Of a DNA stretch of 64,000 bases, positions 4,227 to 62,731 are shown one piece after another. The notes under the pieces are model-generated. The model had not been told where the DNA came from, ran no database searches, and worked only from the letters and a program-made list of their open reading frames with translations. This DNA is from a virus. The DNA lies in the IMG/VR virus record IMGVR_UViG_3300035670_000153, positions 1 to 64,000 of that record; one strand, given 5' to 3'. Made by a program: the position numbers and the translations under genes. Position 1 is the first letter of the stretch. Each line of letters starts with the position of its first letter.

Positions 4227-4754
4227 TTAAATAATTTTGCTCATTATTTCATTTAAACTCACAGGTTCATAATTATTAACATCTACTCCTACATTATAAG
4301 CTTTACCAAGAAATTGATTTAATTCAGGTCTTGCATTATGTACATGCCCATATAAATGTATACTTCCATAATGTTTTGAGTCCCATACATAAAATGGGAA
4401 ATGTGATAGAATTAATTTTACTTTTTCTTGATTATATTGTGTTTTTAATACAAAATAATCTTTAATAAACTCAAAATGAGAGTGTAAGCTTTTATCTTTT
4501 GCCCATGAATCATGATTCCCTAAAATCATATATTTCCTACCATTTAAATTATGTAATATAGCATTTGTTAATATTGGTGTTGCAAAAGAAAAATCTCCTA
4601 AAATATATACTTGGTCATCTGATTTAACTTTTTTATTCCATGCTTTTATCATTGAATCATTCATGTCATATTTATCAATATATGGTCTATTACAAGATTG
4701 TATAATGTTTGTATGATAAAAATGATTATCTGATGTAAAAAATATTTTACTCAT
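4227..4754 (-). CDS. calcineurin-like metallophosphoesterase
   Basis: SDNHFYH, LGDF, GNHD, SHFP, HLYGHVH, NVGVD. Confidence 0.9.
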   Translation of the reverse strand: MSKIFFTSDNHFYHTNIIQSCNRPYIDKYDMNDSMIKAWNKKVKSDDQVYILGDFSFATPILTNAILHNLNGRKYMILGNHDSWAKDKSLHSHFEFIKDYFVLKTQYNQEKVKLILSHFPFYVWDSKHYGSIHLYGHVHNARPELNQFLGKAYNVGVDVNNYEPVSLNEIMSKII

Positions 4755-4796
4755 TTTTTATCCTTTCTTTATATTTATTATTTTTATTATTATATA

Positions 4797-5905
4797 TTAT
4801 CTATACATGCCTTTAGTATATACATATGTTTGTATATGTGAATCATATTGTTTCTTGCTTATCTCTTGAATATTAATAAATCCTTTTACATTATTATACA
4901 TATTAAATATAATTGTAATATCAATTTCATTAGATGATGGATTAAAAATAATGTCATTATATTGAATATGTTCATCTGATAAGGAATCTATAATAGATAA
5001 ATTATTAAAACTACTATCCCATTTTCTTGATAAAATTTTATCTAATACATCATTTAAATTATAAGTTTTTTGTTTAAATAATGAAGTTAATTCTTTTATA
5101 AAATCATTATCTAATATAAAAACTTTATCATATAAAATAGCATCATAATCTGCTTCATTTAGACTATTACAATTACAATGAATATGAATTACTTTAACTT
5201 TTTCATCTTTATTCTGTGATGATGGATTAATCAATTTATTATCTTTCATTAAGCCTCTTAATTCCATTTCGTTAACTAGTTTTTTGTACTGTTCTAGTAA
5301 ATCATCTTGTTTAGGTCTTCTACTTATCATTGCTTAACACACTCCTTATTTTTTATTTTATTTTTTAACCATAGATTAATTATACTATACAAAAAAATAA
5401 AAGTCAATAGGTTAAATTGACTTTTATGTTAATATTAATATTTCAATATTTTTGAGTGATGGCAAATTATATCATTGCTTAATGGTGTTATGTATTCTGC
5501 ATAAATATGATAATTTGAAGTAGTTATCATTTTAATCCACGCTTTTTTACTAAAAGTCCTATTAATATTAGAATTTGAATTTGAATAAAATATATATTCA
5601 TTTATATAAGTTTCCCAATCTGTACATTCAATTTCTCTTTCTTGATGAAGTTCACCACTAGATTTAACACATTGATATTCTTTGATTATCATTTTTTATT
5701 CCTCCTAATATTTTATTTATTAAGTAAATGTCCAAAGTCCTTTATTACATTTATCACACCATACACCTACTTTATCATGTACTTGCCAAAATCTTATTTT
5801 ACTACCATTTGTACTAATATAAAATCCGTCATCATTATCAAACTTTTCATTTGGTTCTGATTTAAATTCAAATTCATATCCACATTGACATTTTATTGTA
5901 AACAT
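4797..5905 (-). other. three hypothetical CDS (4797-5330, 5435-5692, 5720-5905; the last is Zn-ribbon-like)
   Basis: ORF track with SD sites; CQC...CDKC in the last ORF. Confidence 0.6.
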
Positions 5906-5923: not shown

Positions 5924-7117
5924 TTAATTATTATTATGGTAAAATAAGGTTTTAAATATTTCTTCAAGCATAGGGACTACTATACCTCTACCTGCTCTTT
6001 CATATAATTTACTATCAGCTAATCCTGCATTTTTTGCTTTGTAAAAATCTTCATCTGTATATCCCATTAACCTCCAACACTCTAATGGAGTTAATTTTCT
6101 GACTTTAAAATCACATAATATTTTTGGCTGTCTATTCCCTCCATTCATAGAGTTTAATGTAGGTGCAATACCTTTATTGCTGTATATTCTTGTATTACTA
6201 TGTATTTTATTATCTAAATTTCCAACTTGTATTAATTGTCTTCTCCTTTTTATAATAAAATTATCTACACTAGTTCCTTTATGATAATTAGCATCAATGC
6301 AATAACTAATATCTTGATGTGGTAAATTTTCTGTTATATGTTCATATCTATGTTTTGATATATAATATTTATTATCTACATTTAATTCTAATATATCTTG
6401 TAAGTTTATATCTATATTTTTACTTATTGGCATTTTAAAATCAATATCATGAGGTTTTAATATACTAATCATGATTACTCTTTCTCTGTTTTGTGGTACT
6501 CCAAAATTTTTACCATTTAAAACTTTCCAATAAGAATCATAACCTAAATCATCTAAAACTTTTATCCATTCTTTAAAATGTTCAATATGTCTTTTCCCTA
6601 CTAAGTTCTTAACATTCTCCATCATTAAATACTTTGGTTTCTTTTGAGTTATTATTCTTTCACATTCCCATAATAATGATGATTGAGTGCCACTATTTTT
6701 TTCTAATCCTGCTTGTTTACCTGCTACTGAAATTGATTTACAAGGATAAGAGTATGTAAATAAATCAAAACATGGTAATTCTTTTTCATTAATTAATCTT
6801 ATATCCCCATAATTTTTACTTCTTTTATGTGCTAAATATAATTTAATTAATTCTTTTTCACTCCTAGGTATTTCTGATTTACTAGTAGAAAAGTTATATG
6901 CAATATTTTTAGATTTTATTTCATTCAACATTTCTTCTTTAGATGGTATTGCAATATATTCTTCTTTATTATTATGTATAGCATCATATCCTATTAATGC
7001 ATTTTTATCAACTTCACTTATTCCAACAATTTCAAAATCAATTCCAATATTTCTAAGTGCCATTTCTTGACTTCCTACACCTGTAAAAGCTGTAAAAACT
7101 TTTAACAAATAAATCAC
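5924..7117 (-). CDS. DNA cytosine-C5 methyltransferase with atypical motif X (possible carboxymethyltransferase)
   Basis: motif I FTGVGS, catalytic PC (SYPCKS), ENV, PQNRER, RKLTPLEC.RLMG; motif X reads AGRGI instead of AGNSI. Confidence 0.92.
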   Translation of the reverse strand: MIYLLKVFTAFTGVGSQEMALRNIGIDFEIVGISEVDKNALIGYDAIHNNKEEYIAIPSKEEMLNEIKSKNIAYNFSTSKSEIPRSEKELIKLYLAHKRSKNYGDIRLINEKELPCFDLFTYSYPCKSISVAGKQAGLEKNSGTQSSLLWECERIITQKKPKYLMMENVKNLVGKRHIEHFKEWIKVLDDLGYDSYWKVLNGKNFGVPQNRERVIMISILKPHDIDFKMPISKNIDINLQDILELNVDNKYYISKHRYEHITENLPHQDISYCIDANYHKGTSVDNFIIKRRRQLIQVGNLDNKIHSNTRIYSNKGIAPTLNSMNGGNRQPKILCDFKVRKLTPLECWRLMGYTDEDFYKAKNAGLADSKLYERAGRGIVVPMLEEIFKTLFYHNNN

Positions 7118-49409: not shown

Positions 49410-51404
49410 TTATTCATTTATCATATTAAATAATTCATCTAATCCAATAACTTTTACATTTAATTGATTAGCTTTTTCTAATTTACTCCCTGCTTTTTCC
49501 CCTGCAATAAGATAATTTGTTTTTTTAGAAACAGAACTTACAGGAACTCCACCATTATCCTCAATCATTTGAGAGATTTGCTCTCTTTTATAATCACCGA
49601 ATGTACCTGTAACACAAAAAGTTAGTTCTTTCAATCTATGTAAAGATGACTGTGATAATGGGGATTGTTCCATATCTATATTTAAATAACTTAATACATC
49701 TAAAAATGCATTATAGTTATGAGTTGTATTAAACCAATCTTTTAATGAATTACTCATAGCACTTCCAAAATCTTCTAACTTAGTAAAATCAAAATTGTTT
49801 TTAAAAATATCCTCTAAAAATATAGATATATTGTTTTTATAATATTTAGCAATTGTCTTAGATGCAGACTTTCCAATTAGAGGAATACTCATTGAATATA
49901 TTAATCTATGCATTTCTGTATTTTTTGCTTGTTCAATTGATTCGATAAGTTTATTATACGACTTTTTACCAAATCCGTCAAGTGCAATTATTTCTATTTC
50001 TTTATCTTTTTTATTTAATTTAAATAAATCACTGTATGTATTTATTATATCATACTTTATAAATTTGTCAAGTGTTGATTCACTTAATCCATCAATGTTC
50101 ATTGCAGACTTAGACGTAAAGTGTGATAATTTCTTTAATATTTTTCCTGAACACATATCATTAGTACATATTAACACTTCTGTATCATTGTCTTTAGTTA
50201 TTTTAGTATCACTATTACAACTCGGACATTGTTTAATAATTTCCATATTATTAGATTGTGTCAGATTATTAATTATCTGAGGAATAATCATATTAGCTTT
50301 AATAACTTCAACTTCGTCTCCAATACCTATTTTTAATTCTTTTAAAATACTAATATTATGCAAACTAGCTCTTCCTACTGTAGTTCCATCAATTTCAATA
50401 TCATCAAATATAGCTACGGGAGTAATTTGTGTCTTCCCTACACTCCATTCAATAGCTTTAATAGTAGATGTTACACTTTCATCCTTAAATTTAAATGCTA
50501 ATGATGCTAGAGGATGATGTGAAGTATATCCTAAACTTTCACTATACTGTCTACTATCAAAAGTAAATACAATACCATCAATTGGCATTTTTAAATCTTC
50601 TGATATATTTTTTAAAGTAGTAATATAATGATTTAAAGTAACTACATCAGTAAGCGTAGATGATGTACAAGGAGATATAGAAAATCCATATGTTATAAGT
50701 GTTTGTAAATTCTCTAATTTTGAATCAAATATAGTATTTTCTTCATTTTTTGGTAATCTCATTTCAAAAGCATAGAATTTAATAAATCTTTCTGCACAAA
50801 CTTTACTATCCAATTGTCTTACAGAACCCGAAACAAGGTTTCTAGGATGTTTATACTGTGATTCTGTAGGAAGTTTAGAATTAATATATTCAAAGTCATT
50901 TAAATGTATTATAGCCTCTCCTACGACTTCTAATTTATATTTGTATGGTATTTTCAATGGAATATTTTTAAACACTTTAGCATTATGTGTGATATCTTCT
51001 CCTATTGACCCATCCCCTCTTGTAGATGCTCTTTTTAATTCCCCATTATTATATTCTAATTTAACTGTTAATCCATCCATTTTACTCATTACAACATATT
51101 TTTTATTATTTAAAAATTTTGAAACGATTGCAACATCTTTAGTTTTATCAAGAGACAAAAGTCTTATGTCATGTGAAACTTTGTTTAAATCACTCATAAC
51201 TACATATCCAACTTCTTTTGTAGGTGAATTTGATAAAACAATATCATATTTATATTCTAATTCAGTTAATTTATCATATAATGCATCATATTCTTTATCA
51301 GATATAATACTTTTATTATTATTATAGTACTCATGTCTATAGTAGTTTAATTGTTTCACTAAATCATGTATTTCTTTTATTGGAATATCTAGATTATCTC
51401 TCAT
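49410..51404 (-). CDS. ligA: NAD+-dependent DNA ligase
   Basis: YY...ISD.EYD, KMDG, TRGDG, PRN, DGIV, AFKF, Zn finger, HhH, BRCT domain. Confidence 0.96.
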   Translation of the reverse strand: MRDNLDIPIKEIHDLVKQLNYYRHEYYNNNKSIISDKEYDALYDKLTELEYKYDIVLSNSPTKEVGYVVMSDLNKVSHDIRLLSLDKTKDVAIVSKFLNNKKYVVMSKMDGLTVKLEYNNGELKRASTRGDGSIGEDITHNAKVFKNIPLKIPYKYKLEVVGEAIIHLNDFEYINSKLPTESQYKHPRNLVSGSVRQLDSKVCAERFIKFYAFEMRLPKNEENTIFDSKLENLQTLITYGFSISPCTSSTLTDVVTLNHYITTLKNISEDLKMPIDGIVFTFDSRQYSESLGYTSHHPLASLAFKFKDESVTSTIKAIEWSVGKTQITPVAIFDDIEIDGTTVGRASLHNISILKELKIGIGDEVEVIKANMIIPQIINNLTQSNNMEIIKQCPSCNSDTKITKDNDTEVLICTNDMCSGKILKKLSHFTSKSAMNIDGLSESTLDKFIKYDIINTYSDLFKLNKKDKEIEIIALDGFGKKSYNKLIESIEQAKNTEMHRLIYSMSIPLIGKSASKTIAKYYKNNISIFLEDIFKNNFDFTKLEDFGSAMSNSLKDWFNTTHNYNAFLDVLSYLNIDMEQSPLSQSSLHRLKELTFCVTGTFGDYKREQISQMIEDNGGVPVSSVSKKTNYLIAGEKAGSKLEKANQLNVKVIGLDELFNMINE

Positions 51405-53292: not shown

Positions 53293-54312
53293 TCAATGAG
53301 CGTATTTATCAGCTTCATGCACCATCATTAATTCATTATAAAAATCTTCACCAACTAAATTAATTAATTTTTGTTTTGATTTTTCTGTATTTGTATTATG
53401 TAGTCTCATATGAAATTTTATTAATTGACTAATATGTAAAATTTGAAGTATATTATTTTGGTAATTCTCATAGTCATATTCAGGAATTAGTTTTGATATC
53501 ATTTCTAAGAATATTAATATCCCATCATAAGCTGATACATTTTCATGGTTATAAAAATGTGCTATATCAGTTGTTTCTCCTTTATGATTTATAAATGTTT
53601 TAGTAAATTCTTTTCCAATATCATGTAGGAATGTTGCAAATACAACATCATAATTAACTCCATGTTTTTGAATAATATAATCTTTAGCTTTACGACAGTG
53701 TTGCCCTACTGTTAATGTATGATAAGGAGAATCTTGATTTATAATATCTAGTCTTTCAAATATTTTATCAATACTATATTTTTTTAAATCATTTATTTCA
53801 TATTTAATATCAATTTTATCCCAACCTTCAAAATAATAAGGCACATCAAAATTTAAATACATTCTTTTAATAACATCTACAGGAACATTTCTATCTCTAT
53901 TTTTATTTTGTTCTAAACATTTGTCATATGGAGTAAGAATTAAAACAGCAATTTTTTCACAGTCAATATTATTAATCTGTCTTAGGAATTCCATTCTCCT
54001 TTTACTTGATATGTTTGTAGCATCATATACTACATTATTTCCATTTAATAAGTTTGATTTAATTCTATCATGAACAATTTGAAATACATACCATTGATTA
54101 CTTTGGTCATTTATATCTCCTAATACTTCTTCTCTAATTGAGTCTGATGAAACTATGATAGCATTATGTGTCTTTGCTATCTCTTGTGAATGATAAGATT
54201 TTCCACTAGCAGGTAATCCTATCATAAAAAATAATTTTGGTCTTAAATTTAATTTACTCATAACATCATCTTCTTTCTTTTTTATTTTTATGTCGTAAAT
54301 ATATAATATCAT
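53293..54312 (-). CDS. polynucleotide kinase (AAA_33) fused to HD phosphohydrolase
   Basis: GLPASGKS, SSDSIR, YDATN..RR, N.NR.R.VP; H..TV..H, LHDIGK, H, HM, D. Confidence 0.88.
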   Translation of the reverse strand: MILYIYDIKIKKKEDDVMSKLNLRPKLFFMIGLPASGKSYHSQEIAKTHNAIIVSSDSIREEVLGDINDQSNQWYVFQIVHDRIKSNLLNGNNVVYDATNISSKRRMEFLRQINNIDCEKIAVLILTPYDKCLEQNKNRDRNVPVDVIKRMYLNFDVPYYFEGWDKIDIKYEINDLKKYSIDKIFERLDIINQDSPYHTLTVGQHCRKAKDYIIQKHGVNYDVVFATFLHDIGKEFTKTFINHKGETTDIAHFYNHENVSAYDGILIFLEMISKLIPEYDYENYQNNILQILHISQLIKFHMRLHNTNTEKSKQKLINLVGEDFYNELMMVHEADKYAH

Positions 54313-54367
54313 ATATTATTTACAATGTCAAGAGTTCTGTGAAAATTGATTACAGAACTCTTTATCA

Positions 54368-54814
54368 TTAATTAACTTTATTAAATTCAACATTAAAATA
54401 TTCTTGTACTTCTTTTTTAGCATCTTTAAAGCATTTAATATAATATTTTAAATCACTAACTTCTTTTTCTTTCAACTTCATATCTCTAATTAGTTGAATT
54501 ACAACTCGAAACATAGAACCATCATCTTTATAACCAAACCATCCATTATGTATCCATTCCTCTGTTCCATCTGTATATTTAACTAATTTTTGCAGTGACC
54601 TACAACCATCGCTTTTAGTTACAAACCTAATAAAATTATTAATTATAGTAATCTGTTCACTATTATCTAATGGTTCACGTTTTTCTTTTCTTATTTTTTT
54701 TGTAGATGTTTCAGAATCAGAATCCTCTTCAAAATCGTTTTCATTTTCTAACTCAACATCTAAATCTAACTCTAATTCATCTGTAATTAAGCTATTTTTT
54801 GACATAATGCACAA
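54368..54814 (-). CDS. hypothetical protein with acidic N-terminus
   Basis: ORF with GGAGG SD. Confidence 0.65.
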   Translation of the reverse strand: MCIMSKNSLITDELELDLDVELENENDFEEDSDSETSTKKIRKEKREPLDNSEQITIINNFIRFVTKSDGCRSLQKLVKYTDGTEEWIHNGWFGYKDDGSMFRVVIQLIRDMKLKEKEVSDLKYYIKCFKDAKKEVQEYFNVEFNKVN

Positions 54815-54845
54815 CCTCCAATTATTTTATTTTAATATTATTATA

Positions 54846-56168
54846 TTATTCATCTTGAACGCTTTGTGCTTCTTCAATATCTAATACATCATCGGATTTA
54901 ATTATACCTTCTAAAACCTTAAATGTAAAGTTTTTATTTTTTAATGCAGTAAATTTTTCTCTGTTTTCAATTCTTACCACAATACCTTCTCTGATATGAG
55001 ATTTACCAATTGGGTCTACTCCATCAGTATATTTATTTACTCTTTGCATTAAATCTTCTTGAGTAGTATATATAAATTTTTCAAATACAGGAACATGTTC
55101 AATTCCCATTTGTTCACATCTCATTTGTGTTAATTCTGTAGGATATTCTACTACAATTCCATCTTCATTTGTCATAGTCATTCTATATACAAATACCTTA
55201 TTTTCTCCAACATTACATCTATATGTAAACCTAGTAGTTTCACCATATTGTTTAATAAATTCTTTATCTTTTGTTTTACTATTATTGCATTCAGGCATAA
55301 TTAATTGATTACTTTCTGTATATCCTACAATTTCTCCATAAACTGTCTCTCCTTTATGTAATTTACCTAGGAAAAAATTATGCCATTGTTCTCTGAATTT
55401 ATTTGTCCCATAAAATCCACCATCAAATGTATTCAATATGACTCTTCTTGAACCTGAAACATAATCCCATTCTTGTGTAGATTTAAATTTTACACCTAAA
55501 ATATAAAGCAAATTTAAAATGAATCTAGGTAATTTACTATTCCATTTAGATTGAGTAATTTTAAATGCTCTACTTTCTCTTAAACTTGTTCCATGCATTT
55601 TTAGAGATATAGTACAAATATCACCTTCTTTAAATTTAGCCATATTATAAGCTAATTGTTCAGTGTCTCTGTGTTCTGAAAAATAAGGAAATTTATTTTT
55701 TAAACTTATTTTCTTAGAATTACTTACTTTCATTCCTGTATTTTTTGAACCATTTATATGATTTGTTTGAGGAATATACTTATTACAAATTTCTACCCCA
55801 TTTAGGATTGAAATTGTGTCACCTTCTTTTAAAGTACCAACATCGGTAAAACTATGTAAACTATTGACATTTAACAATAAGCCATCTGATTTTTCACCTC
55901 TTAATTTTACTGATGAAACATGTCTTTTGTTTGGGTCTAAATATCCACCAATTTCATTCCCTTGTTCATCTTTCTTACGCAACAAATTATTTGCCTCACA
56001 AAAACCCATATTTAATCTTCCATCTGTTGGGAAATATACCATCATATCTCCAATTTTTACATCTAATCCAACTATAGTATCATTTCCAAATACTGTTGCT
56101 ACTTGTAATCTATCTGCATTAGAATGTTTTCTTAACTCTTTTATTCTTACAATATATCCACAATACAT
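54846..56168 (-). CDS. ATP-dependent RNA ligase (DRB0094/Rnl2-like) with N-terminal tRNA-binding OB-like domain
   Basis: HSNADRL N-terminus, motif I KMHGTS, GSR, YGEIVG, EGIVVR, K.K..F. Confidence 0.85.
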   Translation of the reverse strand: MYCGYIVRIKELRKHSNADRLQVATVFGNDTIVGLDVKIGDMMVYFPTDGRLNMGFCEANNLLRKKDEQGNEIGGYLDPNKRHVSSVKLRGEKSDGLLLNVNSLHSFTDVGTLKEGDTISILNGVEICNKYIPQTNHINGSKNTGMKVSNSKKISLKNKFPYFSEHRDTEQLAYNMAKFKEGDICTISLKMHGTSLRESRAFKITQSKWNSKLPRFILNLLYILGVKFKSTQEWDYVSGSRRVILNTFDGGFYGTNKFREQWHNFFLGKLHKGETVYGEIVGYTESNQLIMPECNNSKTKDKEFIKQYGETTRFTYRCNVGENKVFVYRMTMTNEDGIVVEYPTELTQMRCEQMGIEHVPVFEKFIYTTQEDLMQRVNKYTDGVDPIGKSHIREGIVVRIENREKFTALKNKNFTFKVLEGIIKSDDVLDIEEAQSVQDE

Positions 56169-57220
56169 TATACAATACCTGCTTTCTTTAATATATTTTT
56201 ATTTATTTCAATTACTAATTCATTTATTTTATTTTCATCTGGTTTTAATGGTAATTCAGTATGTTTAATAGAAAATTTTAAATCTTTTTCTGCTTTATCA
56301 ATCATATTAAAAATTTCTGAATAATCTTTATTATTATCTTTATTAATTACATAATCTCCATTCCTTAATGCCATCATAAACTCATGTTCATGTGCTCTAT
56401 TTGTAATAACTCCTTTACCTTCTAATATTTCTTTCCCCATTCTCATAAGTCTTATAATATGCATTACATGCTTATTTAAATGGATATCATCTTTCTTATT
56501 GTTTCTATGATTAAGAGAATCATAATCTTTAATAACATTTTTCCATTCAGATAATATAGATAATAAATCTCTTAATGGATAATGTTTAAGATTTAAATTT
56601 AAAAATATTTCTTCATCAAAATCTGTTTTGTTTGATTTATCAAGAAATAAGTTAATATCTTTCCCATCAAAGCAATGATAATTACGTTCTATATGTTCTC
56701 TTTGATGATTTATACTGTCTAATATGTGTTTCTCTTTTTCTTTTTGAGGATATGAGTCACGTGCTAAAGCATTTTGTAATCTTCTTAATTGAGCTGTAGC
56801 ATATCCACAAAAGGAATGTATTGCTCTTTGAGATAAAAATAAATTGATATTATCTCTTAATATTTTACCTTCATTACTTAATACAAAAATATCTTCTTCT
56901 CTAGTTCCAAATATTTCTAGTACATTGGGATTGCAATTCAATAAAAGATTAATAATTTGTTTAAAATAATAAATAGTAGTATCTGTTTTAGTTTCTACAA
57001 ATGGCTTATCTGTATTATTCATAGTCAGTAAATCATAATAACTATTATGTGCAACTCCTCTAATATCAATATCACTATTTTCATTATTTAATCCATAAGC
57101 ATATGAACCACCTAATGTAAGTATCATTAAATTATCTTTAAATTTATCTTTTAAAAAATCATAATCATTACTTGTATAAATTGTTTTTTGTATCTTTTTT
57201 GAATAATTATTTCCCATATT
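56168..57220 (-). CDS. Pol-beta family nucleotidyltransferase, RlaP/YcgL-like
   Basis: GGSYAYGL...SDIDIRG, NPN.LE, GYA..QL, KH.MH..RL; stop overlaps the RNA ligase start; probable start MNMGN. Confidence 0.85.
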   Translation of the reverse strand, partial: NMGNNYSKKIQKTIYTSNDYDFLKDKFKDNLMILTLGGSYAYGLNNENSDIDIRGVAHNSYYDLLTMNNTDKPFVETKTDTTIYYFKQIINLLLNCNPNVLEIFGTREEDIFVLSNEGKILRDNINLFLSQRAIHSFCGYATAQLRRLQNALARDSYPQKEKEKHILDSINHQREHIERNYHCFDGKDINLFLDKSNKTDFDEEIFLNLNLKHYPLRDLLSILSEWKNVIKDYDSLNHRNNKKDDIHLNKHVMHIIRLMRMGKEILEGKGVITNRAHEHEFMMALRNGDYVINKDNNKDYSEIFNMIDKAEKDLKFSIKHTELPLKPDENKINELVIEINKNILKKAGIV

Positions 57221-57611
57221 CATCTCCCCATATATTTTTAATATTATGTTTCGATTTTTTATCTGCTTTTTTTTCATGGTCTTTTTTTATTTTTTCTATT
57301 TTATTTTGCAGTTTATTATAATTTTTAATAATGAATCCATCTTTTTCTTCTTCATCTAAAAATATAATTTTTTCTAATTGTAATATTTCACCTTCTAAAA
57401 ATCTTGCGTTGATTATAATTCTATTAATTTCCTCTTTTAAAGTTTCAGTTTGTAATATTGAAACTTTGTCCTGTGTTTCTAACATACAATTATATTGTAT
57501 ATTATATTGTCTGCTAGTATCACGTAGTAAAAGACTCAATTCGTTCATTTCATCCATTAAACTTTCAAGCTTTAAATCATTTTCACTTTTTAAAAAATTC
57601 AATATCTTCAT
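57207..57611 (-). CDS. coiled-coil hypothetical protein
   Basis: GGAGG SD. Confidence 0.65.
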   Translation of the reverse strand: MKILNFLKSENDLKLESLMDEMNELSLLLRDTSRQYNIQYNCMLETQDKVSILQTETLKEEINRIIINARFLEGEILQLEKIIFLDEEEKDGFIIKNYNKLQNKIEKIKKDHEKKADKKSKHNIKNIWGDEYGK

Positions 57612-57769: not shown

Positions 57770-59245
57770 TTAAAAATAGTAATTTTCTATTTTCTTAACT
57801 AATGTATCAGTTCCATTTTCTGCTAAATGAATAAAATCAAAAATCTTTTCTGACCATCCTGCTATTATATTTGTATGATGTCCTTTAAATTGTTGTGTTC
57901 CATATCCCATTAAATCAACAGCATGAATCCAAACATTATTATTTATTTTATTTCTATATTCATTTGCAATTTTTTGACAAGGTACTTTATTATTATTATA
58001 CCATGATGATACTCTATCCATATCCCATCCTGAATTAATTTCATTATCAGATAATACAATAATTCTATCTACCTGTATATTATTATTAATTAAATATCTG
58101 AATGGTAATGTTATATCTGTTCCTCCACCATCAATTCTCATTCTTTCAGCATTTGATATAATTCCATTTGTGCTTGGCATAGTAACGTTTCTAATATTTG
58201 TATCAAAAGTAACTAATATTGTATCTTCACAAACATAATTACCCATAGACATTAATAGTGTTGCTATTTCTGAACATTTAATTGTACTCTTATTACTTAT
58301 TGCACTCGACATAGAGCCTGATACATCACAAGCAATTAAAGTTTTACCTTTAAGTGTTTGTACGTTTTGAGTACTTAATTTTATAGCTTCTTCTAAAATA
58401 TTATAAACCTTAGATGAACCTAGATTTTCTTGTTGCAATGTTTTATATGCTGAAAAATATCTGAAAGGTAACTGCTTATTGTTAAGAACAGCATCTCTAT
58501 TTGATAAAAAATCGTAAACCATATCAATATTATTAGGATTTGCTTTTATGATGTTTCTTAAATTTCTAAGCATTGCCATATATCCAACTTTTTTACTTGC
58601 TATTAATCCTTCCCATACTTCTTTTGTATTACCTTTTGCAGATAATTCTGTTTCCCAAGTATAAGGTGTTTCTAATTTATCTTCTAATAATCTTTTAAAC
58701 ATATCATTTTGAACTTCTGTTTTTGCTTTAGGATGTGTTAAACAAACTAAATCTTTAAGTTTTATATCTTTACTTTGGCTATTATATTTTTGTAATTGAT
58801 ACTCATTAAATGTAAGTAATCTATCAGCTAATCCCTTTTTAACAGAGTTTGGGATTGGTTTACCATAAGTATTAATTATATATGATAGTATTTCTGTCAT
58901 ATCATCTACTCTTTCAATTACATTGTTAATAGTTTTTCTTGTAAAAGGTTTTCCATTAACATGATTAGCTAACTCTCCAACTAAAACGTGAGATATACTA
59001 CGTAAATGCATTTCTTTTCTTGCAAACAATGCTAAATTAGCAATGAATTCTGGTTCTTTATTTAATACATTACGAATATTTTCAACTATTTCATTTGAAT
59101 TATCACCATAAAACTTTGATTCATTAAATAATGATGTAAGAACTTGTGTAACTAATTTTTCTTTATCAGACATTGTAAAAGCTTTAACACCTGATTTGTT
59201 TTCAGTAATTGAATTATCACTTGCATTTTTATTAAACTTTGACAT
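57770..59245 (-). CDS. Ro60/Rsr-like TROVE + vWA RNA-binding protein
   Basis: KFY, LALFAR.EMHLRS, F.EYQL.KY, L.HPK, TWETELS, GYMAMLRNLRN, QLPFRY; MIDAS DVSGSM, GGGTD, LSDNE, GWSE. Confidence 0.93.
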   Translation of the reverse strand: MSKFNKNASDNSITENKSGVKAFTMSDKEKLVTQVLTSLFNESKFYGDNSNEIVENIRNVLNKEPEFIANLALFARKEMHLRSISHVLVGELANHVNGKPFTRKTINNVIERVDDMTEILSYIINTYGKPIPNSVKKGLADRLLTFNEYQLQKYNSQSKDIKLKDLVCLTHPKAKTEVQNDMFKRLLEDKLETPYTWETELSAKGNTKEVWEGLIASKKVGYMAMLRNLRNIIKANPNNIDMVYDFLSNRDAVLNNKQLPFRYFSAYKTLQQENLGSSKVYNILEEAIKLSTQNVQTLKGKTLIACDVSGSMSSAISNKSTIKCSEIATLLMSMGNYVCEDTILVTFDTNIRNVTMPSTNGIISNAERMRIDGGGTDITLPFRYLINNNIQVDRIIVLSDNEINSGWDMDRVSSWYNNNKVPCQKIANEYRNKINNNVWIHAVDLMGYGTQQFKGHHTNIIAGWSEKIFDFIHLAENGTDTLVKKIENYYF

Positions 59246-59284
59246 AGGGGAAAACCTCCTGTTTATTATTTATTTTTATTTCTA

Positions 59285-59377
59285 TGGCAGGAAGTAAGGG
59301 ATTCGAACCCTTGCATCATAAAAATGACCTAATGCTTTAGCAAAGCATCCTCTTTAGCCATACTTGAGTAACTTCCT
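59285..59377 (-). tRNA. tRNA-Ser(GCT)
   Basis: cloverleaf, ATGCT-TTGCTAA-AGCAT, long variable arm, GTTCGAATC, encoded CCA. Confidence 0.92.
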
Positions 59378-59475
59378 ATAAATATTGTCTATCTGATTGT
59401 AATCTCAATATAATATTATTATATAACTTTATAGTTGTCAATACTTAAATAAAAATAATATTTAATATTAATAAT

Positions 59476-59567
59476 TGGCGGTGAGAGTAGGATTTGAACC
59501 TACGGAGGGCGAAAGCCCCCTCCAGTTTTCAAGACTGGTGCTATAAGCCATACTCTGCCACCCCACC
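59476..59567 (-). tRNA. tRNA-Ser(TGA)
   Basis: CCAGT-CTTGAAA-ACTGG, long variable arm, G73, CCA. Confidence 0.93.
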
Positions 59568-59574
59568 GTGATTA

Positions 59575-59745
59575 TGGTCTCTCCCATCGTCACCTTTATA
59601 AAACTATTTCTAGTATTGGACAGTAAAGGTCTTGCCCTATGCAAACGCTAGAATCGCCCCTAGCTCTTAATAATACCTACATCGAGCAAAGGATTCTTCA
59701 ATCATTTTATAATATTGAGTAGTGTAAAGTGATTGGTATTTAGAA
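59575..59745 (-). ncRNA. candidate structured ncRNA of unknown class
   Basis: GC-enriched spacer with stems AATACC/GGTATT, GCTAG/CTAGC and ACCTTTA/TAAAGGT, ending in ACCA. Confidence 0.35.
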
Positions 59746-59748
59746 AGA

Positions 59749-59832
59749 TGGTGGGTAGAGATAGATTTGAACTATCGTAGCAATTGCAATGGATTTACAG
59801 TCCATCTCCTTTAACCACTCGGACACCTACCC
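59749..59832 (-). tRNA. tRNA-Tyr(GTA)
   Basis: ATGGA-CTGTAAA-TCCAT, variable arm, CCA. Confidence 0.93.
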
Positions 59833-59837
59833 ATATT

Positions 59838-59909
59838 TGTGAATAAGAGGACTCGAACCTCTATCTAACAACTTGAATCGTTAACTTTGACCAATTAAGT
59901 TATATTCAC
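59838..59909 (-). tRNA. aberrant tRNA-like gene (6-nt anticodon loop TTCAAG, no encoded CCA)
   Basis: acceptor GTGAATA/TATTCAC, D loop with TGG, T arm AGAGG-TTCGAGT-CCTCT. Confidence 0.7.
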
Positions 59910-59941
59910 ATAGTTAAAATATCATTTACTTTTATTACTAA

Positions 59942-60015
59942 TGGAGAGTAATATAGGAATTGAACCTATGAATGTGGAGTTGCAGTCCACCACCATACCA
60001 CTTGGTTAATTACTC
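59942..60015 (-). tRNA. tRNA-Cys(GCA)
   Basis: GTGGA-CTGCAAC-TCCAC, U73, CCA. Confidence 0.93.
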
Positions 60016-60020
60016 ATATT

Positions 60021-60152
60021 TATTAAAAGAAAAACGACATCAGTATTTTTTGTTATCCTGCCATTAGACGAATTCATAAATTATGAATAATAGGACTCGA
60101 ACCTAATATCTACACCTTGGAATGGAGTAACTGATATCTACACTTTTTAATA
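60021..60152 (-). ncRNA. Y-RNA-like element 1 with permuted tRNA module (YrlA-like)
   Basis: terminal stem-AGTGTA-GATATCAGT..ACTGATGTC; T arm TAGG-TTCGAGT-CCTA, loop-closed acceptor TTCATA/TATGAA, D arm GTCTAATGGCAGGAT. Confidence 0.8.
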
Positions 60153-60153
60153 A

Positions 60154-60229
60154 TGGTCTACTCATCAGGACTCGAACCTGAAACCTCATCACCCCAAATG
60201 ACGAATTCTACCAATTGAAATATGAGTAG
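60154..60229 (-). tRNA. tRNA-Pro(TGG)
   Basis: CGTCA-TTTGGGG-TGATG, CCA. Confidence 0.92.
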
Positions 60230-60236
60230 ATATTTT

Positions 60237-60335
60237 TTTGTTTTAGAGAAAATCAATATTTGTATTTTTATTTTATCACGCTAGAAACGTGACTATTATG
60301 TAAGAAGTAACAAATATTTACACTTCTAAAACAAA
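60237..60335 (-). ncRNA. Y-RNA-like element 2 (family stem plus one hairpin)
   Basis: AGAAGTGTA-AATATTTGT-TACTTC...ACAAATATT-GATTTTCTCT; internal TCACG/CGTGA hairpin. Confidence 0.7.
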
Positions 60336-60372
60336 TTGTTATTAATAATTAATCTCTTTATCATAAATATAT

Positions 60373-60472
60373 TTTATTATTTAGAGAAAATCTATATTTG
60401 TATGTAAACCCTCGTCTGAGAGTATCTTATATCGGAAAGAAGTAACAAATATATACACTTCTAAATAATAAA
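60373..60472 (-). ncRNA. Y-RNA-like element 3
   Basis: AGAAGTGTA-TATATTTGT-TACTTC...ACAAATATA-GATTTTCTCT. Confidence 0.7.
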
Positions 60473-60544
60473 TATACTTACTTCAATAAAAATTGTAAGG
60501 TTTAATTTAATAGAATTAAACGGCAATTTAATCCTAAATAATTT

Positions 60545-60616
60545 TACTTGAGAAAATCAAATAAAGTATTTATTTTCACCAAAAGAAAGAAGTAACTTTA
60601 TTTTACACTGCAAGTA
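60545..60616 (-). ncRNA. Y-RNA-like element 4 (minimal)
   Basis: TACTTG-CAGTGTA-AAATAAAGT-TACTTC...ACTTTATTT-GATTTTCT-CAAGTA. Confidence 0.7.
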
Positions 60617-60619
60617 TAA

Positions 60620-60695
60620 TGGCTGGAAGACAAGGATTCGAACCTCGATTATCTGAGTCAAAGTCAGATGTCATAACCAATTAGACCATCTTCCA
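60620..60695 (-). tRNA. tRNA-Gln(TTG)
   Basis: TCTGA-CTTTGAC-TCAGA, U1-A72, G73, CCA. Confidence 0.93.
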
Positions 60696-60781
60696 TTATT
60701 GGAATATATTTTGTAAAAGAATTAAATCCATTTACGCATATATTATAAGTATAATTCTTTATAAAAATAATTTTAATTTTA

Positions 60782-61447
60782 TTATTTAATAACTGGTTTA
60801 AATTCTCCAAAATATTTTTCTTCTGCTTCTTTTCTAGCATTTACAGCATATTGAAAAACTTCATATCTGCCTAGAAATATATTCTTATTATTTATTCTAA
60901 TATAGGCATACCATTTTTGTCTTTTATCATCCCATCTTACACCCATTACTCCACTTTTATTTGTTGATACAATATTTTTATTTCTTGCATTTTCTTGACT
61001 AGTACAACATCTTAAATTATATTTAATGTTATTTAATGGATTTCTATCAATATGGTCTACTACAATATTATTATTATCATCAACAACATTCATTATAAAT
61101 CTGTGCAATTTAACATGTTTACTATCTATAGTTGTACATACATAATTATTTTTGCTTTCTATACACCATTTATACATACTACATCTTTCAACATCATTTA
61201 AATCAATTATAGCTTTATTAATAGGATTCCCTTGAATATTATATAAAATAATTTCAGCATAATTATCATATATGATTATTTCATTTACATCATTTCTATT
61301 TCTTTCTTGTTTTGATTCATCAATAATTTTATTATGTCTTTTTAGTTGTTGATAATGTTTACCACATAATATCATATTCCATTTTTTGCTATTTGTCATC
61401 TTATGTGTCTCATTTTCAAAACAACCACAAATATTACAAGTATACAT
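60782..61447 (-). CDS. free-standing HNH-AP2 homing endonuclease inside the tRNA array
   Basis: LHRFIM..VVDHIDRNPLNN.KYNLR..T.QEN.RN; SG..GV.W....KWYAYI......LG.Y (AP2). Confidence 0.88.
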   Translation of the reverse strand: MYTCNICGCFENETHKMTNSKKWNMILCGKHYQQLKRHNKIIDESKQERNRNDVNEIIIYDNYAEIILYNIQGNPINKAIIDLNDVERCSMYKWCIESKNNYVCTTIDSKHVKLHRFIMNVVDDNNNIVVDHIDRNPLNNIKYNLRCCTSQENARNKNIVSTNKSGVMGVRWDDKRQKWYAYIRINNKNIFLGRYEVFQYAVNARKEAEEKYFGEFKPVIK

Positions 61448-61484
61448 TACTTCACCTTCTTTTATTTATTGATTGATAAAATTT

Positions 61485-61650
61485 TATTAGGAGAAATTCG
61501 ATATTGGTTCATATGTTATATTTTGTGCTTATTTAACCTGTCAAAACACAGGACTTAGATTAAAGCACCCCATCTAAGTTTTGTTTTTTTAAAATACGAA
61601 ATTTTAAAATTCTTATAATTTGAAGTAACCAATATCTACACTACCTAATA
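61485..61650 (-). ncRNA. Y-RNA-like element 5 (family stem plus three hairpins, no T/D consensus)
   Basis: TATTAGG-TAGTGTA-GATATTGGT-TACTTC...ACCAATATC-GAATTTCT-CCTAATA; three internal hairpins. Confidence 0.7.
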
Positions 61651-61694
61651 TCTTACCTTTTCTGCTTTTCTTACTATTTCATAAAACAATTTGT

Positions 61695-61765
61695 TAATCC
61701 GAGAAAAAATGCATAGAGTGTTTTTTCGTAAAATGAAGTAACCCTAATGCTACACCTTCGGATTA
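61695..61765 (-). ncRNA. Y-RNA-like element 6 (minimal)
   Basis: TAATCCGA-AGGTGTA-GCATTAGGGT-TACTTC...ACTCTATGC-ATTTTTTC-TCGGATTA. Confidence 0.65.
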
Positions 61766-61839
61766 TGGCAGGGATGGAAAGAATTGAACTCTCGACAATG
61801 GTTTTGGAGACCATTGTTTTACCATTAAACTACATCCCT
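61766..61839 (-). tRNA. tRNA-Trp(CCA)
   Basis: ATGGT-CTCCAAA-ACCAT, G73, CCA. Confidence 0.93.
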
Positions 61840-61847
61840 ATAAGTAA

Positions 61848-61978
61848 TATTCAGAGAACAACTATTAGAAATTTTTTACGTTTTACCATTAAACTACATC
61901 TGCATGTTGCAGATGATTGGACTCGAACCAATATCTTATCAACCCATTTGAAGAAATTCCAATATACACTTCTAAATA
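61848..61978 (-). ncRNA. Y-RNA-like element 7 with permuted tRNA module
   Basis: AGAAGTGTA-TATTGGAA...; T arm ATTGG-TTCGAGT-CCAAT, acceptor CATCTGCA/TGCAGATG closed by ACA, TA, D arm GTTT-AATGGTA-AAAC. Confidence 0.85.
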
Positions 61979-61981
61979 CTA

Positions 61982-62056
61982 TGGTAGCTCATACCAGAAT
62001 TGAACTGATATTTTGTGGTTGAAAACCACATGTCCTTACCATTAGACGAATGAGCC
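61982..62056 (-). tRNA. tRNA-Glu(TTC)
   Basis: TGTGG-TTTTCAA-CCACA, CCA. Confidence 0.92.
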
Positions 62057-62062
62057 ATATTA

Positions 62063-62196
62063 TAGGTGAGAAAATCAAATAGTCTTTTATCGTACTCTAC
62101 CATTTGAGCTATAACACATCATATGATGTATTAGTGAGACTCGAACTCACAACCCCGTCATTAACATTGAAGAAGTACTATTTTACACTACACCTA
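62063..62196 (-). ncRNA. Y-RNA-like element 8 with permuted tRNA module
   Basis: TAGGTG-TAGTGTA-AAATAGT-ACTTC; T arm GTGAG-TTCGAGT-CTCAC, acceptor TAATACATC/GATGTGTTA closed by ATAT, TA, D arm GCTC-AAATGGTA-GAGT. Confidence 0.85.
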
Positions 62197-62200
62197 AATT

Positions 62201-62276
62201 TGGAAGCAGAAGCAAGATTTGAACTTGCGATTTTCAGATTATGAGTCTGACGAGATGACCACTTCTCTATTCTGCA
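62201..62276 (-). tRNA. tRNA-Met(CAT), initiator-like
   Basis: TCAGA-CTCATAA-TCTGA, 1:72 U-U mismatch, CCA. Confidence 0.88.
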
Positions 62277-62301
62277 ATATATAATCTCTTACTGTATTAC
62301 T

Positions 62302-62330
62302 ATCTTATCATGTTATTTAATATCTGTCAA
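62302..62330 (-). promoter_or_regulatory. sigma-A promoter for the tRNA/Y-RNA array
   Basis: TTGACA-17 nt-TAAGAT with TG extension and A/T-rich UP element. Confidence 0.8.
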
Positions 62331-62543: not shown

Positions 62544-62621
62544 GTACTTTTAAAAATTTTTTATTATACATTTAAATATAAAAACAACGACATTCAAACG
62601 CACTAAATACAATGGTGCTAC

Positions 62622-62731
62622 TTTCATGCAAATTTTTTGCACGTAATTTTTATACGGATGAGAGTTTCATGCAAAAAATTTGCATGAGAATTTTTTATGG
62701 AGAGAGTTTCATGCAAATTTTTTGCACGTAA
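62622..62731. repeat. three palindromic iteron-like repeats (putative origin)
   Basis: TTTCATGCAAAWWWTTTGCAYG at 62622, 62665 and 62707 (43 and 42 bp period), followed by an AT-rich tract. Confidence 0.75.

What the first reader, a model, noticed from the sequence alone, without database searches (positions are those of the whole stretch)
57770..62330. Phage Ro60 preceded by an array of eight Y-RNA-like RNAs interleaved with tRNAs
Seen: eight elements (60021, 60237, 60373, 60545, 61485, 61695, 61848, 62063) share one minus-strand scaffold. It runs outer stem, asymmetric loop (A/G)GUGUA opposite GAUUUUCU, 7-10 bp inner stem, then UACUUC. The stem sequences differ between copies but stay complementary, which is covariation visible by eye. 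The cargo varies: a plain loop, one hairpin, three hairpins or a permuted tRNA. All lie on the same strand as, and upstream of, a TROVE/vWA Ro60 gene. Known: bacterial Ro60 binds Y RNAs encoded next to it, usually one or two, and YrlA RNAs carry a tRNA-like module. Inference: one Ro60 with a modular set of eight adaptor or decoy RNAs. The conserved loop does not match the classic GGUCCGA/UUGAC bulged-C site, so this may be a distinct Y RNA subfamily.
Basis: partly seen in the sequence, partly recalled or inferred. Interest (0 to 1): 0.93.

Follow-up and report, generated by a model that had tools for sequence, protein, structure and literature searches.

The report
Phage Ro60 with eight Y RNAs
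A phage fragment carries eight small RNA genes, threaded between tRNA genes, that share one conserved docking "handle" but hold different inserts; the same handle sits next to the gene for the ring-shaped RNA-binding protein Ro60 in well over a hundred bacterial and phage sequences, so these are most likely an unrecorded branch of Ro60's partner ("Y") RNAs.

Summary
Eight minus-strand elements (60021-62197) share one scaffold, and a pattern scan finds it far above chance.

The scaffold reads: outer stem, a one-base bulge, a 2-bp A-G:C-U clamp, an internal loop UGUA opposite GAUUUU, an inner stem, UACUUC, then variable cargo. Pairing is kept by compensatory changes (99.3% of cells paired, 16 of 17 pairs).

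A covariance model built only from bacterial relatives (R2) recovers exactly these eight in the window. In the first two collections it gives 372 matches in 113 of 118 Ro60 loci. Of these, 371 lie on the Ro60 strand and 364 lie upstream of Ro60. In four whole bacterial genomes all 11 matches lie at the Ro60 gene.

Three cargoes (E1, E7, E8) are YrlA-type tRNA look-alikes. The family stays below Rfam YrlA's cut-off and lacks the published GNCGAAN0-1G motif.

Copy numbers of 2-3 in bacteria and up to 11 in viral contigs are normal for this clade.

My reading: Ro60 partner RNAs, probably co-transcribed with the tRNAs. Binding and expression are untested. I class it as a new variant of a known kind.

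This scan has noted similar Ro60-linked RNA arrays on other phage DNA before.

The parts
60021..60152 (-). E1: handle plus tRNA-like cargo (T arm, closed acceptor-like hairpin, D arm). It lies 1 nt after tRNA-Pro and 5 nt before tRNA-Cys.
   Evidence: R2 63.8 bits, E 2.3e-15; fold; tRNA coordinates
60240..60332 (-). E2: handle plus one-hairpin cargo
   Evidence: R2 50.3 bits; fold
60378..60467 (-). E3: handle plus short hairpin cargo
   Evidence: R2 57.3 bits; fold
60544..60617 (-). E4: minimal element, handle plus loop, 2 nt after tRNA-Gln
   Evidence: R2 59.0 bits; fold
61485..61650 (-). E5: handle plus three-hairpin cargo
   Evidence: R2 46.5 bits; fold
61696..61764 (-). E6: minimal element with GGUGUA / AUUUUUUCU loop variant, 1 nt after tRNA-Trp
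   Evidence: R2 37.3 bits, E 6.4e-8; fold
61848..61978 (-). E7: handle plus YrlA-type tRNA-like cargo, between tRNA-Glu and tRNA-Trp
   Evidence: R2 51.3 bits; Rfam YrlA 26.2 bits, full length 1-114, below the cut-off of 69
62062..62197 (-). E8: handle plus YrlA-type tRNA-like cargo, between tRNA-Met and tRNA-Glu
   Evidence: R2 54.0 bits; Rfam YrlA 27.5 bits over model positions 24-84
57770..59245 (-). Ro60 gene (491 aa; TROVE ring plus vWA domain)
   Evidence: Pfam TROVE 1.1e-33 and vWA_Ro60 2.7e-12; 57-73% identical to Clostridia proteins
59285..62276 (-). Ten tRNA genes. Ser-GCU, Ser-UGA, Tyr, one with an odd anticodon loop, and Cys lie between the array and Ro60. Pro, Gln, Trp, Glu and Met are interleaved with the elements.
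   Evidence: ARAGORN; Rfam tRNA 47-71 bits
60782..61447 (-). HNH/AP2 endonuclease gene splitting the array between E5 and tRNA-Gln
   Evidence: Pfam HNH_3 1.9e-6, AP2 4.1e-4
62302..62330 (-). Promoter-like site TTGACA-17-TAAGAT with TG, 26 nt upstream of tRNA-Met. Candidate start of the array transcript; consensus match only.
   Evidence: promoter-like sites are not enriched over shuffles: 51 against 44.7
59413..59441 (-). Second promoter-like site, TTGACA-17-TAATAT, upstream of tRNA-Ser-GCU and Ro60
53293..57277 (-). Downstream RNA-repair genes: RlaP-type nucleotidyltransferase (56168-57277), RNA ligase (54846-56168), polynucleotide kinase-like protein (53293-54312)
   Evidence: Pfam RlaP 8.7e-13, RNA_ligase 3.2e-8; PHROG polynucleotide kinase 2.3e-20

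Best explanation
The eight elements are genes for Ro60 partner RNAs (Y RNAs). They belong to a widespread family, related to YrlA, that Rfam does not capture at its cut-off.

Each RNA closes its 5' and 3' ends into a conserved handle. The handle is an outer stem, a one-base bulge, an A-G:C-U clamp, an internal loop UG(U/C)A opposite G-N-UUUU, an inner stem, then UACUUC. It occupies the place where known Y RNAs carry their Ro60 site, so it is inferred to dock the phage Ro60. The far end displays a variable module: three tRNA look-alikes, hairpins or a plain loop.

Six of the eight elements lie 1-10 nt from a tRNA gene on at least one side. The array is therefore probably transcribed with the tRNAs, and tRNA 5' and 3' processing could free the RNAs at those junctions.

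One Ro60 would thus be loaded with eight different adaptors. By analogy with characterised Y RNAs, these would tether it to other factors, or gate it, during infection.

Shown: the fold, the covariation, the family and its genomic tie to Ro60. Inferred: transcription, processing, Ro60 binding and the role.
For: Structure:
- Each element folds alone into the scaffold.
- With the window's eight aligned to a model that contains none of them, 99.3% of cells pair and 16 of 17 pairs change on both sides. The covariation score is 1.013, against 0.276 when shuffled and at most 0.223 when the partner is slid.
- Across 146 distinct bacterial copies, 96.1% of cells pair and 17 of 17 pairs change on both sides. 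The score is 0.824 against 0.192 shuffled.
- The clamp pair itself covaries: G-C 99, U-A 47.

Family and link to Ro60:
- Model R2, built from bacterial loci only, finds exactly these 8 in the window and in the 72-kb record.
- It finds 223 matches in 77 of 80 genome loci and 149 in 36 of 38 viral loci. Of the 372, 371 are on the Ro60 strand, 364 upstream and 7 downstream. The median gap to Ro60 is 188 nt in genome loci and 371 nt in viral loci.
- It finds 56 matches, all on the Ro60 strand, in 17 of 17 metagenome loci searched (17 of the 80 fetched).
- Whole-genome searches of five bacterial genomes gave 11 matches in four of them, all at the Ro60 gene.
- The handle also flanks Ro60 in Xanthomonas phage Olaya (5 matches upstream) and in crAss001 (downstream).

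Kinship with Y RNAs:
- There are full-length YrlA alignments below the cut-off.
- Y RNAs carry the Ro60 site in the stem formed by their 5' and 3' ends, and a conserved UA follows the anticodon-like stem of YrlA (passages of preprint 10.1101/312249).

Processing: gaps of 1-10 nt to tRNA genes.
Against: - No binding or expression data exist here, and no RNA run holds this DNA.
- The published 5' motif thought to contact Ro60 (GNCGAAN0-1G) is absent in 0 of 8 window copies and 0 of 371 family copies. No element reaches Rfam YrlA's cut-off. Docking therefore rests on position and genomic linkage only.
- UACUUC is conserved even where there is no tRNA-like cargo, and I cannot say what it contacts.
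- R2 descends from matches of a model seeded with the window's copies, and the alignments used for pair counts were fitted to the model, which favours the structure.
- Promoter-like sites are no more frequent than in shuffles.
- Five of 118 loci have no match.
- One bacterial genome gave none in the whole-genome search, although its locus did when searched alone.
Confidence: 0.8

Rival explanations
1. The handle is recognised by some factor other than Ro60, such as an RNA-repair or tRNA-processing enzyme or host PNPase. On this reading Ro60 is merely a neighbour in the operon, and the RNAs are substrates or decoys for that factor.
For: RNA-repair genes (RlaP-type nucleotidyltransferase, RNA ligase, kinase) lie just downstream. 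Three cargoes mimic tRNA. The known Ro60-contact motif is missing.
Against: Relatives of the window's repair genes accompany Ro60 in few of the 118 loci: RlaP in 6, kinase in 3, ligase in 1. The handle accompanies Ro60 in 113. Ro60 is therefore the only constant neighbour found. The handle sits where Y RNAs hold their Ro60 site.
Confidence: 0.1
2. The elements are cis-acting leader structures, such as attenuators or riboswitch-like sensors, that control expression of the Ro60 operon.
For: Nearly all copies lie upstream of Ro60 on the same strand, often within 200 nt.
Against: - In the window, five tRNA genes and a promoter-like site separate the array from Ro60.
- Copies number up to 11 and carry unrelated cargoes.
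- Seven family copies and the crAss001 copies lie downstream of Ro60.
- Elements abut tRNA genes as separate genes would.
Confidence: 0.04
3. The elements are decaying tRNA-derived repeats or a mobile repeat with no function of their own.
For: Three cargoes are tRNA-like and lie in a tRNA cluster that also holds a homing-type HNH endonuclease.
Against: Both stems are kept by compensatory changes while the loops stay constant, across hundreds of copies in distant hosts. Matches are confined to Ro60 loci in whole genomes.
Confidence: 0.03

Closest known systems
YrlA / YrlB Y RNAs bound by bacterial and mycobacteriophage Ro60 (Rsr): Rfam RF02553; Chen et al. 2014, PMC4201824 (sections 5 and 10 and passages read); structure preprint 10.1101/312249 (passages read)
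   Same: - They are encoded within 4 kb of Ro60 on the same strand.
- The 5' and 3' ends pair into a stem interrupted by an internal loop.
- A second stem leads to a module with T arm, closed acceptor-like hairpin and D arm (E1, E7, E8).
- Shorter companions without that module play the YrlB-like part.
- A conserved UA follows the inner stem.
- E7 aligns over the full length of the Rfam model.
   Different: - Scores are 26-27 bits in the window and 30-51 bits in relatives, against a cut-off of 69.
- GNCGAAN0-1G is absent (0 of 8 and 0 of 371). A(G/U)UG(C/U)A opposite G-N-UUUU(C/A)U, plus UACUUC, takes its place.
- There are eight copies here and up to 11 elsewhere. The paper reports at least two Y RNAs in each of the three species it characterised.
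- Cargoes include whole tRNAs in relatives (L100).
Thermus phage phiLo Ro60 with Yrl1 and Yrl2 (PMC12135203; abstract and passages read)
   Same: A phage-encoded Ro60 with Y-like RNAs upstream of its gene. There, binding was shown, and complexes with host PNPase were formed.
   Different: That phage has two RNAs, picked by a CGAA motif. Here there are eight, only one of them (E6) has CGAA near its 5' end, and they are interleaved with tRNA genes.
Metazoan and Deinococcus Y RNAs (GGUCCGA bulged helix)
   Same: A bulged helix in the stem formed by the RNA's two ends, and a modular design.
   Different: The window has no exact GGUCCGA. The near-matches inside the array are T-loop GGTTCGA.

Membership tests
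YrlA (Rfam RF02553) | Score at or above the curated gathering cut-off (69 bits) | tested here: not met
   There was no YrlA match at the gathering cut-off in the window. E8 scores 27.5 bits and E7 26.2 bits, and the other six have no match at E up to 10.
YrlA (Chen et al. 2014) | GNCGAAN0-1G motif near the 5' end | tested here: not met
   Regex over the first 25 nt: 0 of 8 window elements and 0 of 371 family copies. CGAA alone occurs in 1 of 8 and 8 of 371.
YrlA (Chen et al. 2014) | tRNA-like module: T arm, closed acceptor-like hairpin, D arm | tested here: met
   Met for 3 of 8 (E1, E7, E8): folds, T-loop and D-loop motifs, YrlA model alignment of E7 and E8. The other five lack it, as YrlB-type RNAs do.
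YrlA (Chen et al. 2014) | Encoded within 4 kb of Ro60 on the same strand | tested here: met
   The elements span 60021-62197(-). Ro60 starts at 59245(-), so they lie 776 to 2952 nt upstream.
Y RNA (functional class) | Bound by Ro60 | not testable with these tools
   No protein-RNA assay or predictor was available. No RNA sequencing run holds this DNA.
Y RNA (functional class) | Stem formed by the 5' and 3' ends carrying a conserved, bulged site, plus a separate variable module | tested here: met
Metazoan/Deinococcus-type Y RNA | GGUCCGA in the conserved helix | tested here: not met
   The window has 0 exact matches. The 14 one-mismatch matches equal the chance expectation of 14.7.
Ro60-linked handle family defined here (model R2) | Match to a covariance model built from bacterial Ro60-adjacent copies only | tested here: met
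   8 of 8 match, at 37.3-63.8 bits and E 6.4e-8 to 2.3e-15, with no other match in the window at E up to 1.
tRNA (RF00005), for the cargo | Score at or above 29 bits | tested here: not met
   The E8 region scores 22.3 bits and the E1 region 17.2 bits. The order of the arms is permuted.

The most novel reading that the evidence does not exclude
The handle may be a general-purpose Ro60 docking cassette that phages graft onto interchangeable cargoes, including complete tRNAs. On this reading a phage loads one Ro60 ring with a panel of adaptors made in the same transcript as its tRNAs. The panel would couple tRNA supply to RNA surveillance or repair, and so counter host nucleases that cut tRNAs. 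Each cargo would recruit a different host or phage enzyme.
Probability: 0.2. Interest if true: 0.8.

Novelty: new variant of a known kind. Interest (0 to 1): 0.62.

Why it matters
Chen et al. 2014 (PMC4201824, section 10, read) say Y RNA functions are best characterised in a single bacterium. That paper reports at least two Y RNAs in each species it characterised. It also notes that some Ro60-bearing bacteria had no strong candidate.

This handle fills part of that gap for Clostridia and many phages: 113 of 118 loci have it. It gives a compact, testable definition of a docking site. It also shows natural panels of up to 11 RNAs in which the handle is fixed and the cargo varies, which amounts to a ready-made structure-function series.

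Cultured carriers exist, so the binding and expression tests are practical. They include the Clostridium and Acetivibrio species named, Xanthomonas phage Olaya and crAss001.

Tried and rejected
- **Rfam at curated cut-offs.** Only the ten tRNAs matched in the window. No YrlA match appeared in 13 related loci.
- **A ninth copy at 50443(-), and a match at 20047(+).** These were regex matches only. Neither model matched them, and 50443 lies inside the long reading frame at 49410-51404. Rejected.
- **Single-protein scan of viral contigs.** It found no relative. The alignment-based scan did.
- **Expression.** No RNA holder was listed for this DNA. I did not use read laying, because the holders are DNA contigs.
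- **Nearest Ro60 relative (P0002, 73% identical).** The metagenome scan reached at most 65%. I therefore could not ask whether individual cargoes are conserved between close phages.
- **Linkage to RNA repair as a general rule.** Relatives of the window's RlaP, ligase and kinase genes occur in only 6, 1 and 3 of 118 loci. I did not look for other repair genes such as RtcB. Not supported as a family-wide trait.
- **Promoter scan.** Two good TTGACA sites exist, but there is no enrichment over shuffles. I treat them as suggestions only.
- **The 181-nt spacer at 59568-59748.** Its fold is not better than shuffles (z -1.09), and it has no significant Rfam match (the only overlapping hits have E above 1).
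- **Vibrio phage phiKT1024 Ro60 locus.** No R2 match at E up to 1 and no YrlA match at E up to 0.01. The 635-kb uncultured phage gave only a weak R2 match of 23 bits. The handle is therefore not universal among Ro60 genes.
- **Literature.** Four searches found no description of this handle, of Clostridial Y RNAs or of large Y RNA arrays. The 2020 Annual Review and the 2018 Microbiology Spectrum review were not held. Supplements are closed and I did not open them. Supplemental Tables S1 and S2 of Chen et al. 2014 may list Clostridia or several candidates per locus, which would lower the novelty.
- **The cis-regulatory and junk-repeat readings.** Both were considered and rejected; see the rival explanations.
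- **Complex prediction, structure prediction and the third model slot.** Not used. They would not test RNA binding.

Full report
**What is there**

The window is the first 64 kb of a 72,172-bp virus record with 24.7% G+C. The record is linear and CheckV estimates it 44% complete. Its large genes are phage replication and nucleotide-metabolism genes.

On the minus strand, a Ro60 gene (57770-59245; TROVE 1.1e-33, vWA_Ro60 2.7e-12) is preceded by ten tRNA genes.

The pattern GTGTAN{7,14}TWCTYC occurs 11 times in the window against 0.60 expected (0 of 100 shuffles reach 11). Nine of these matches fall in the eight elements. Each element, folded alone, gives the described outer stem, internal loop and inner stem.

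**The structure, refined**

Reading the eight side by side shows a more regular design than a plain asymmetric loop:
- an outer stem of 5-8 pairs;
- one bulged base;
- a two-pair clamp, A-G with C-U;
- an internal loop UGUA opposite G-A/U-U-U-U-U;
- an inner stem of 7-11 pairs ending G-U;
- then UACUUC and the cargo.

I aligned the window's eight to a model that contains none of them. In that alignment 99.3% of cells pair and 16 of 17 pairs change on both sides. The covariation score is 1.013, against 0.276 after shuffling and at most 0.223 when the partner is slid by 1-3 columns. These alignments were fitted to the model, which favours the structure. Even so, the complementarity is visible in the raw strings.

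**Is it tied to Ro60 elsewhere?**

The Ro60 protein is 57-73% identical to proteins of Clostridium, Acetivibrio and Oceanirhabdus. I fetched 80 genome loci and 38 viral loci that encode relatives.

A first model made from the window's eight (R1) matched 184 places in the genome loci and 112 in the viral loci. All but one were on the Ro60 strand.

I then rebuilt the model from 150 bacterial matches only (R2):
- R2 finds exactly the eight window elements, at 37-64 bits, and nothing else in the window or the whole record.
- At E up to 0.001 it gives 223 matches in 77 of 80 genome loci and 149 in 36 of 38 viral loci.
- Of these 372, 371 are on the Ro60 strand: 364 upstream and 7 just downstream.
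- The median gap to the Ro60 start is 188 nt in genome loci and 371 nt in viral loci.

My script counted the single minus-strand match (L099) as upstream, and I have corrected for it here. Near-identical viral loci were not removed, and several loci are cut by contig ends. The five loci without a match include two with under 530 nt upstream and one that holds only the last 75 residues of the gene.

In a third collection, 17 of 17 loci searched (of 80 fetched) gave 56 matches, all on the Ro60 strand.

Whole-genome searches of five bacterial genomes of 3.7-5.8 Mb gave 11 matches in four of them, every one at the Ro60 gene. The fifth gave none, although its locus matched when searched alone. The first-look filter scored only 150 of about 2,500 candidates there.

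Covariation across 146 distinct bacterial copies is strong. Some 96.1% of cells pair, 17 of 17 pairs change on both sides, and the score is 0.824 against 0.192. It is likewise strong in the viral copies. The clamp's second pair switches between G-C (99) and U-A (47).

The family consensus is: stem, bulge C/U/A, A, G/U, U, G, C/U, A, stem ending G-U, UACUUC; then A-C, stem, G-N-U-U-U-U, C/A, U, stem.

**Relation to known Y RNAs**

Chen et al. 2014 (PMC4201824; sections 5 and 10 and passages read) define YrlA RNAs by four features:
- their place within 4 kb of Ro60 on the same strand;
- a 5' motif GNCGAAN0-1G;
- a tRNA-like module;
- at least two Y RNAs in each of the three species they characterised.

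Place and module fit. E7 aligns to the Rfam YrlA model over its whole length and E8 over the tRNA-like core, but at 26-27 bits against a cut-off of 69. Relatives with tRNA-like cargo score 30-51 bits, and none of 13 loci reaches the cut-off.

GNCGAAN0-1G is absent from all 8 window elements and all 371 family copies. GGUCCGA is absent too.

The structure preprint (10.1101/312249, passages read) says three things of use here:
- the Ro60 site lies in the stem formed by the RNA's two ends;
- the next stem stands for the anticodon stem;
- a conserved UA follows that stem.

This maps neatly onto the outer stem and loop, the inner stem, and the UA of UACUUC.

About half the family carries a T-loop motif (191 of 371). 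The rest are short, like YrlB. So this is a divergent branch of the YrlA/YrlB kind, not a member by the published criteria.

The branch reaches beyond Clostridia. Xanthomonas phage Olaya has five matches directly upstream of its unannotated Ro60, and crAss001 has matches just downstream of its TROVE gene. A Vibrio phage Ro60 locus has none.

**Copy number and tRNAs**

In genome loci the commonest counts are 2 (23 loci) and 3 (29 loci), with a maximum of 6. In viral loci the commonest is 3 (13 loci), with 6-7 in nine loci and 11 in one. Eight is therefore high but not unique.

In the window, six of eight elements lie 1-10 nt from a tRNA gene on at least one side. Elsewhere such flush contact occurs for 32 of 149 viral matches (17 of 38 loci), but for only 7 of 223 in genome loci. 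Interleaving with tRNAs is thus mainly a viral habit.

In one viral locus the handle encloses a complete, unpermuted tRNA-Leu(CAG) with ACCA (L100:854-991). This shows how freely cargo is exchanged.

**How it most likely works**

Shown: a conserved, covarying handle; variable cargo; strict genomic coupling to Ro60.

Inferred:
- The array is transcribed with the tRNAs. A promoter-like TTGACA-17-TAAGAT lies 26 nt upstream of tRNA-Met. The scan flagged no terminator-like site on that strand inside the array apart from one within the tRNA-Met T arm. Such consensus matches are weak evidence.
- tRNA end-processing could free the elements at their tRNA-flanked ends.
- The handle docks Ro60.
- The cargo tethers or gates it, as Y RNAs do for PNPase in Deinococcus and Salmonella and in the phiLo phage (PMC4201824; PMC12135203, passages read).

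RNA-repair genes follow Ro60 here, which fits a role in RNA surveillance or repair during infection. Relatives of those genes accompany Ro60 in only a few of the 118 loci, so I hold that part loosely.

**Novelty and limits**

Four literature searches found no account of this handle, of Clostridial Y RNAs or of arrays of this size. Two reviews were not held, and the supplements of the 2014 paper are closed, so prior listing cannot be excluded.

This scan has itself noted similar arrays beside Ro60 or Ro60-like genes in other phages. One of those notes describes a module containing TACTTC.

Binding and expression are untested, and no RNA run holds this DNA. I rate this a new variant of a known kind, of moderate to high interest.

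Noticed in passing
L100:854-991 (viral contig locus): A copy of the handle encloses a complete, unpermuted tRNA-Leu(CAG) ending in ACCA. Rfam tRNA scores it 60.4 bits and R2 65.4 bits. Processing of that tRNA would cut the Y-like RNA in two.
   Followed up: partly
window 59837-59910 (-): A tRNA-like gene for which ARAGORN cannot assign an anticodon ('tRNA-???', anticodon 'ca'), although Rfam scores it 56.8 bits as a tRNA.
   Followed up: no
window 62614-62730: A cluster of near-palindromic repeats built on a shared core, between the HTH_36 gene and the array. It gives several weak microRNA-like Rfam matches on both strands. It may be a set of protein-binding sites.
   Followed up: no
window 60782-61447 (-): An HNH/AP2 endonuclease gene sits inside the RNA gene array between E5 and tRNA-Gln, as homing endonucleases often do in phage tRNA clusters (recalled). 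DNA similar to part of it lies under annotated HNH/homing endonuclease genes in Klebsiella phages (71% identity over about 140 nt).
   Followed up: no
L119:5907-6230 (Bacteroides phage crAss001): Handle matches lie downstream of the TROVE gene. An Rfam tRNA match of 46.6 bits spans 144 nt (6084-6227) and overlaps the weaker handle match at 6150-6230. This suggests a tRNA-shaped RNA carrying the handle as an insert.
   Followed up: partly
L120:3346-3959 (Xanthomonas phage Olaya): Five handle matches lie directly upstream of a gene annotated only as 'hypothetical protein', which is a Ro60 relative (31.7% identity to the window's protein). Two of them also score 50 and 39.6 bits on Rfam YrlA.
   Followed up: partly
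window 59568-59748 (-): A 181-nt spacer between tRNA-Tyr and tRNA-Ser-UGA has no significant Rfam match and a fold no better than shuffles (z -1.09).
   Followed up: partly
G005 / L016: The whole-genome search with R2 reported no match in this genome. The locus searched alone did give one upstream of Ro60 (4723-4925, 54.6 bits). A blank from the whole-genome RNA search is therefore not reliable.
   Followed up: yes
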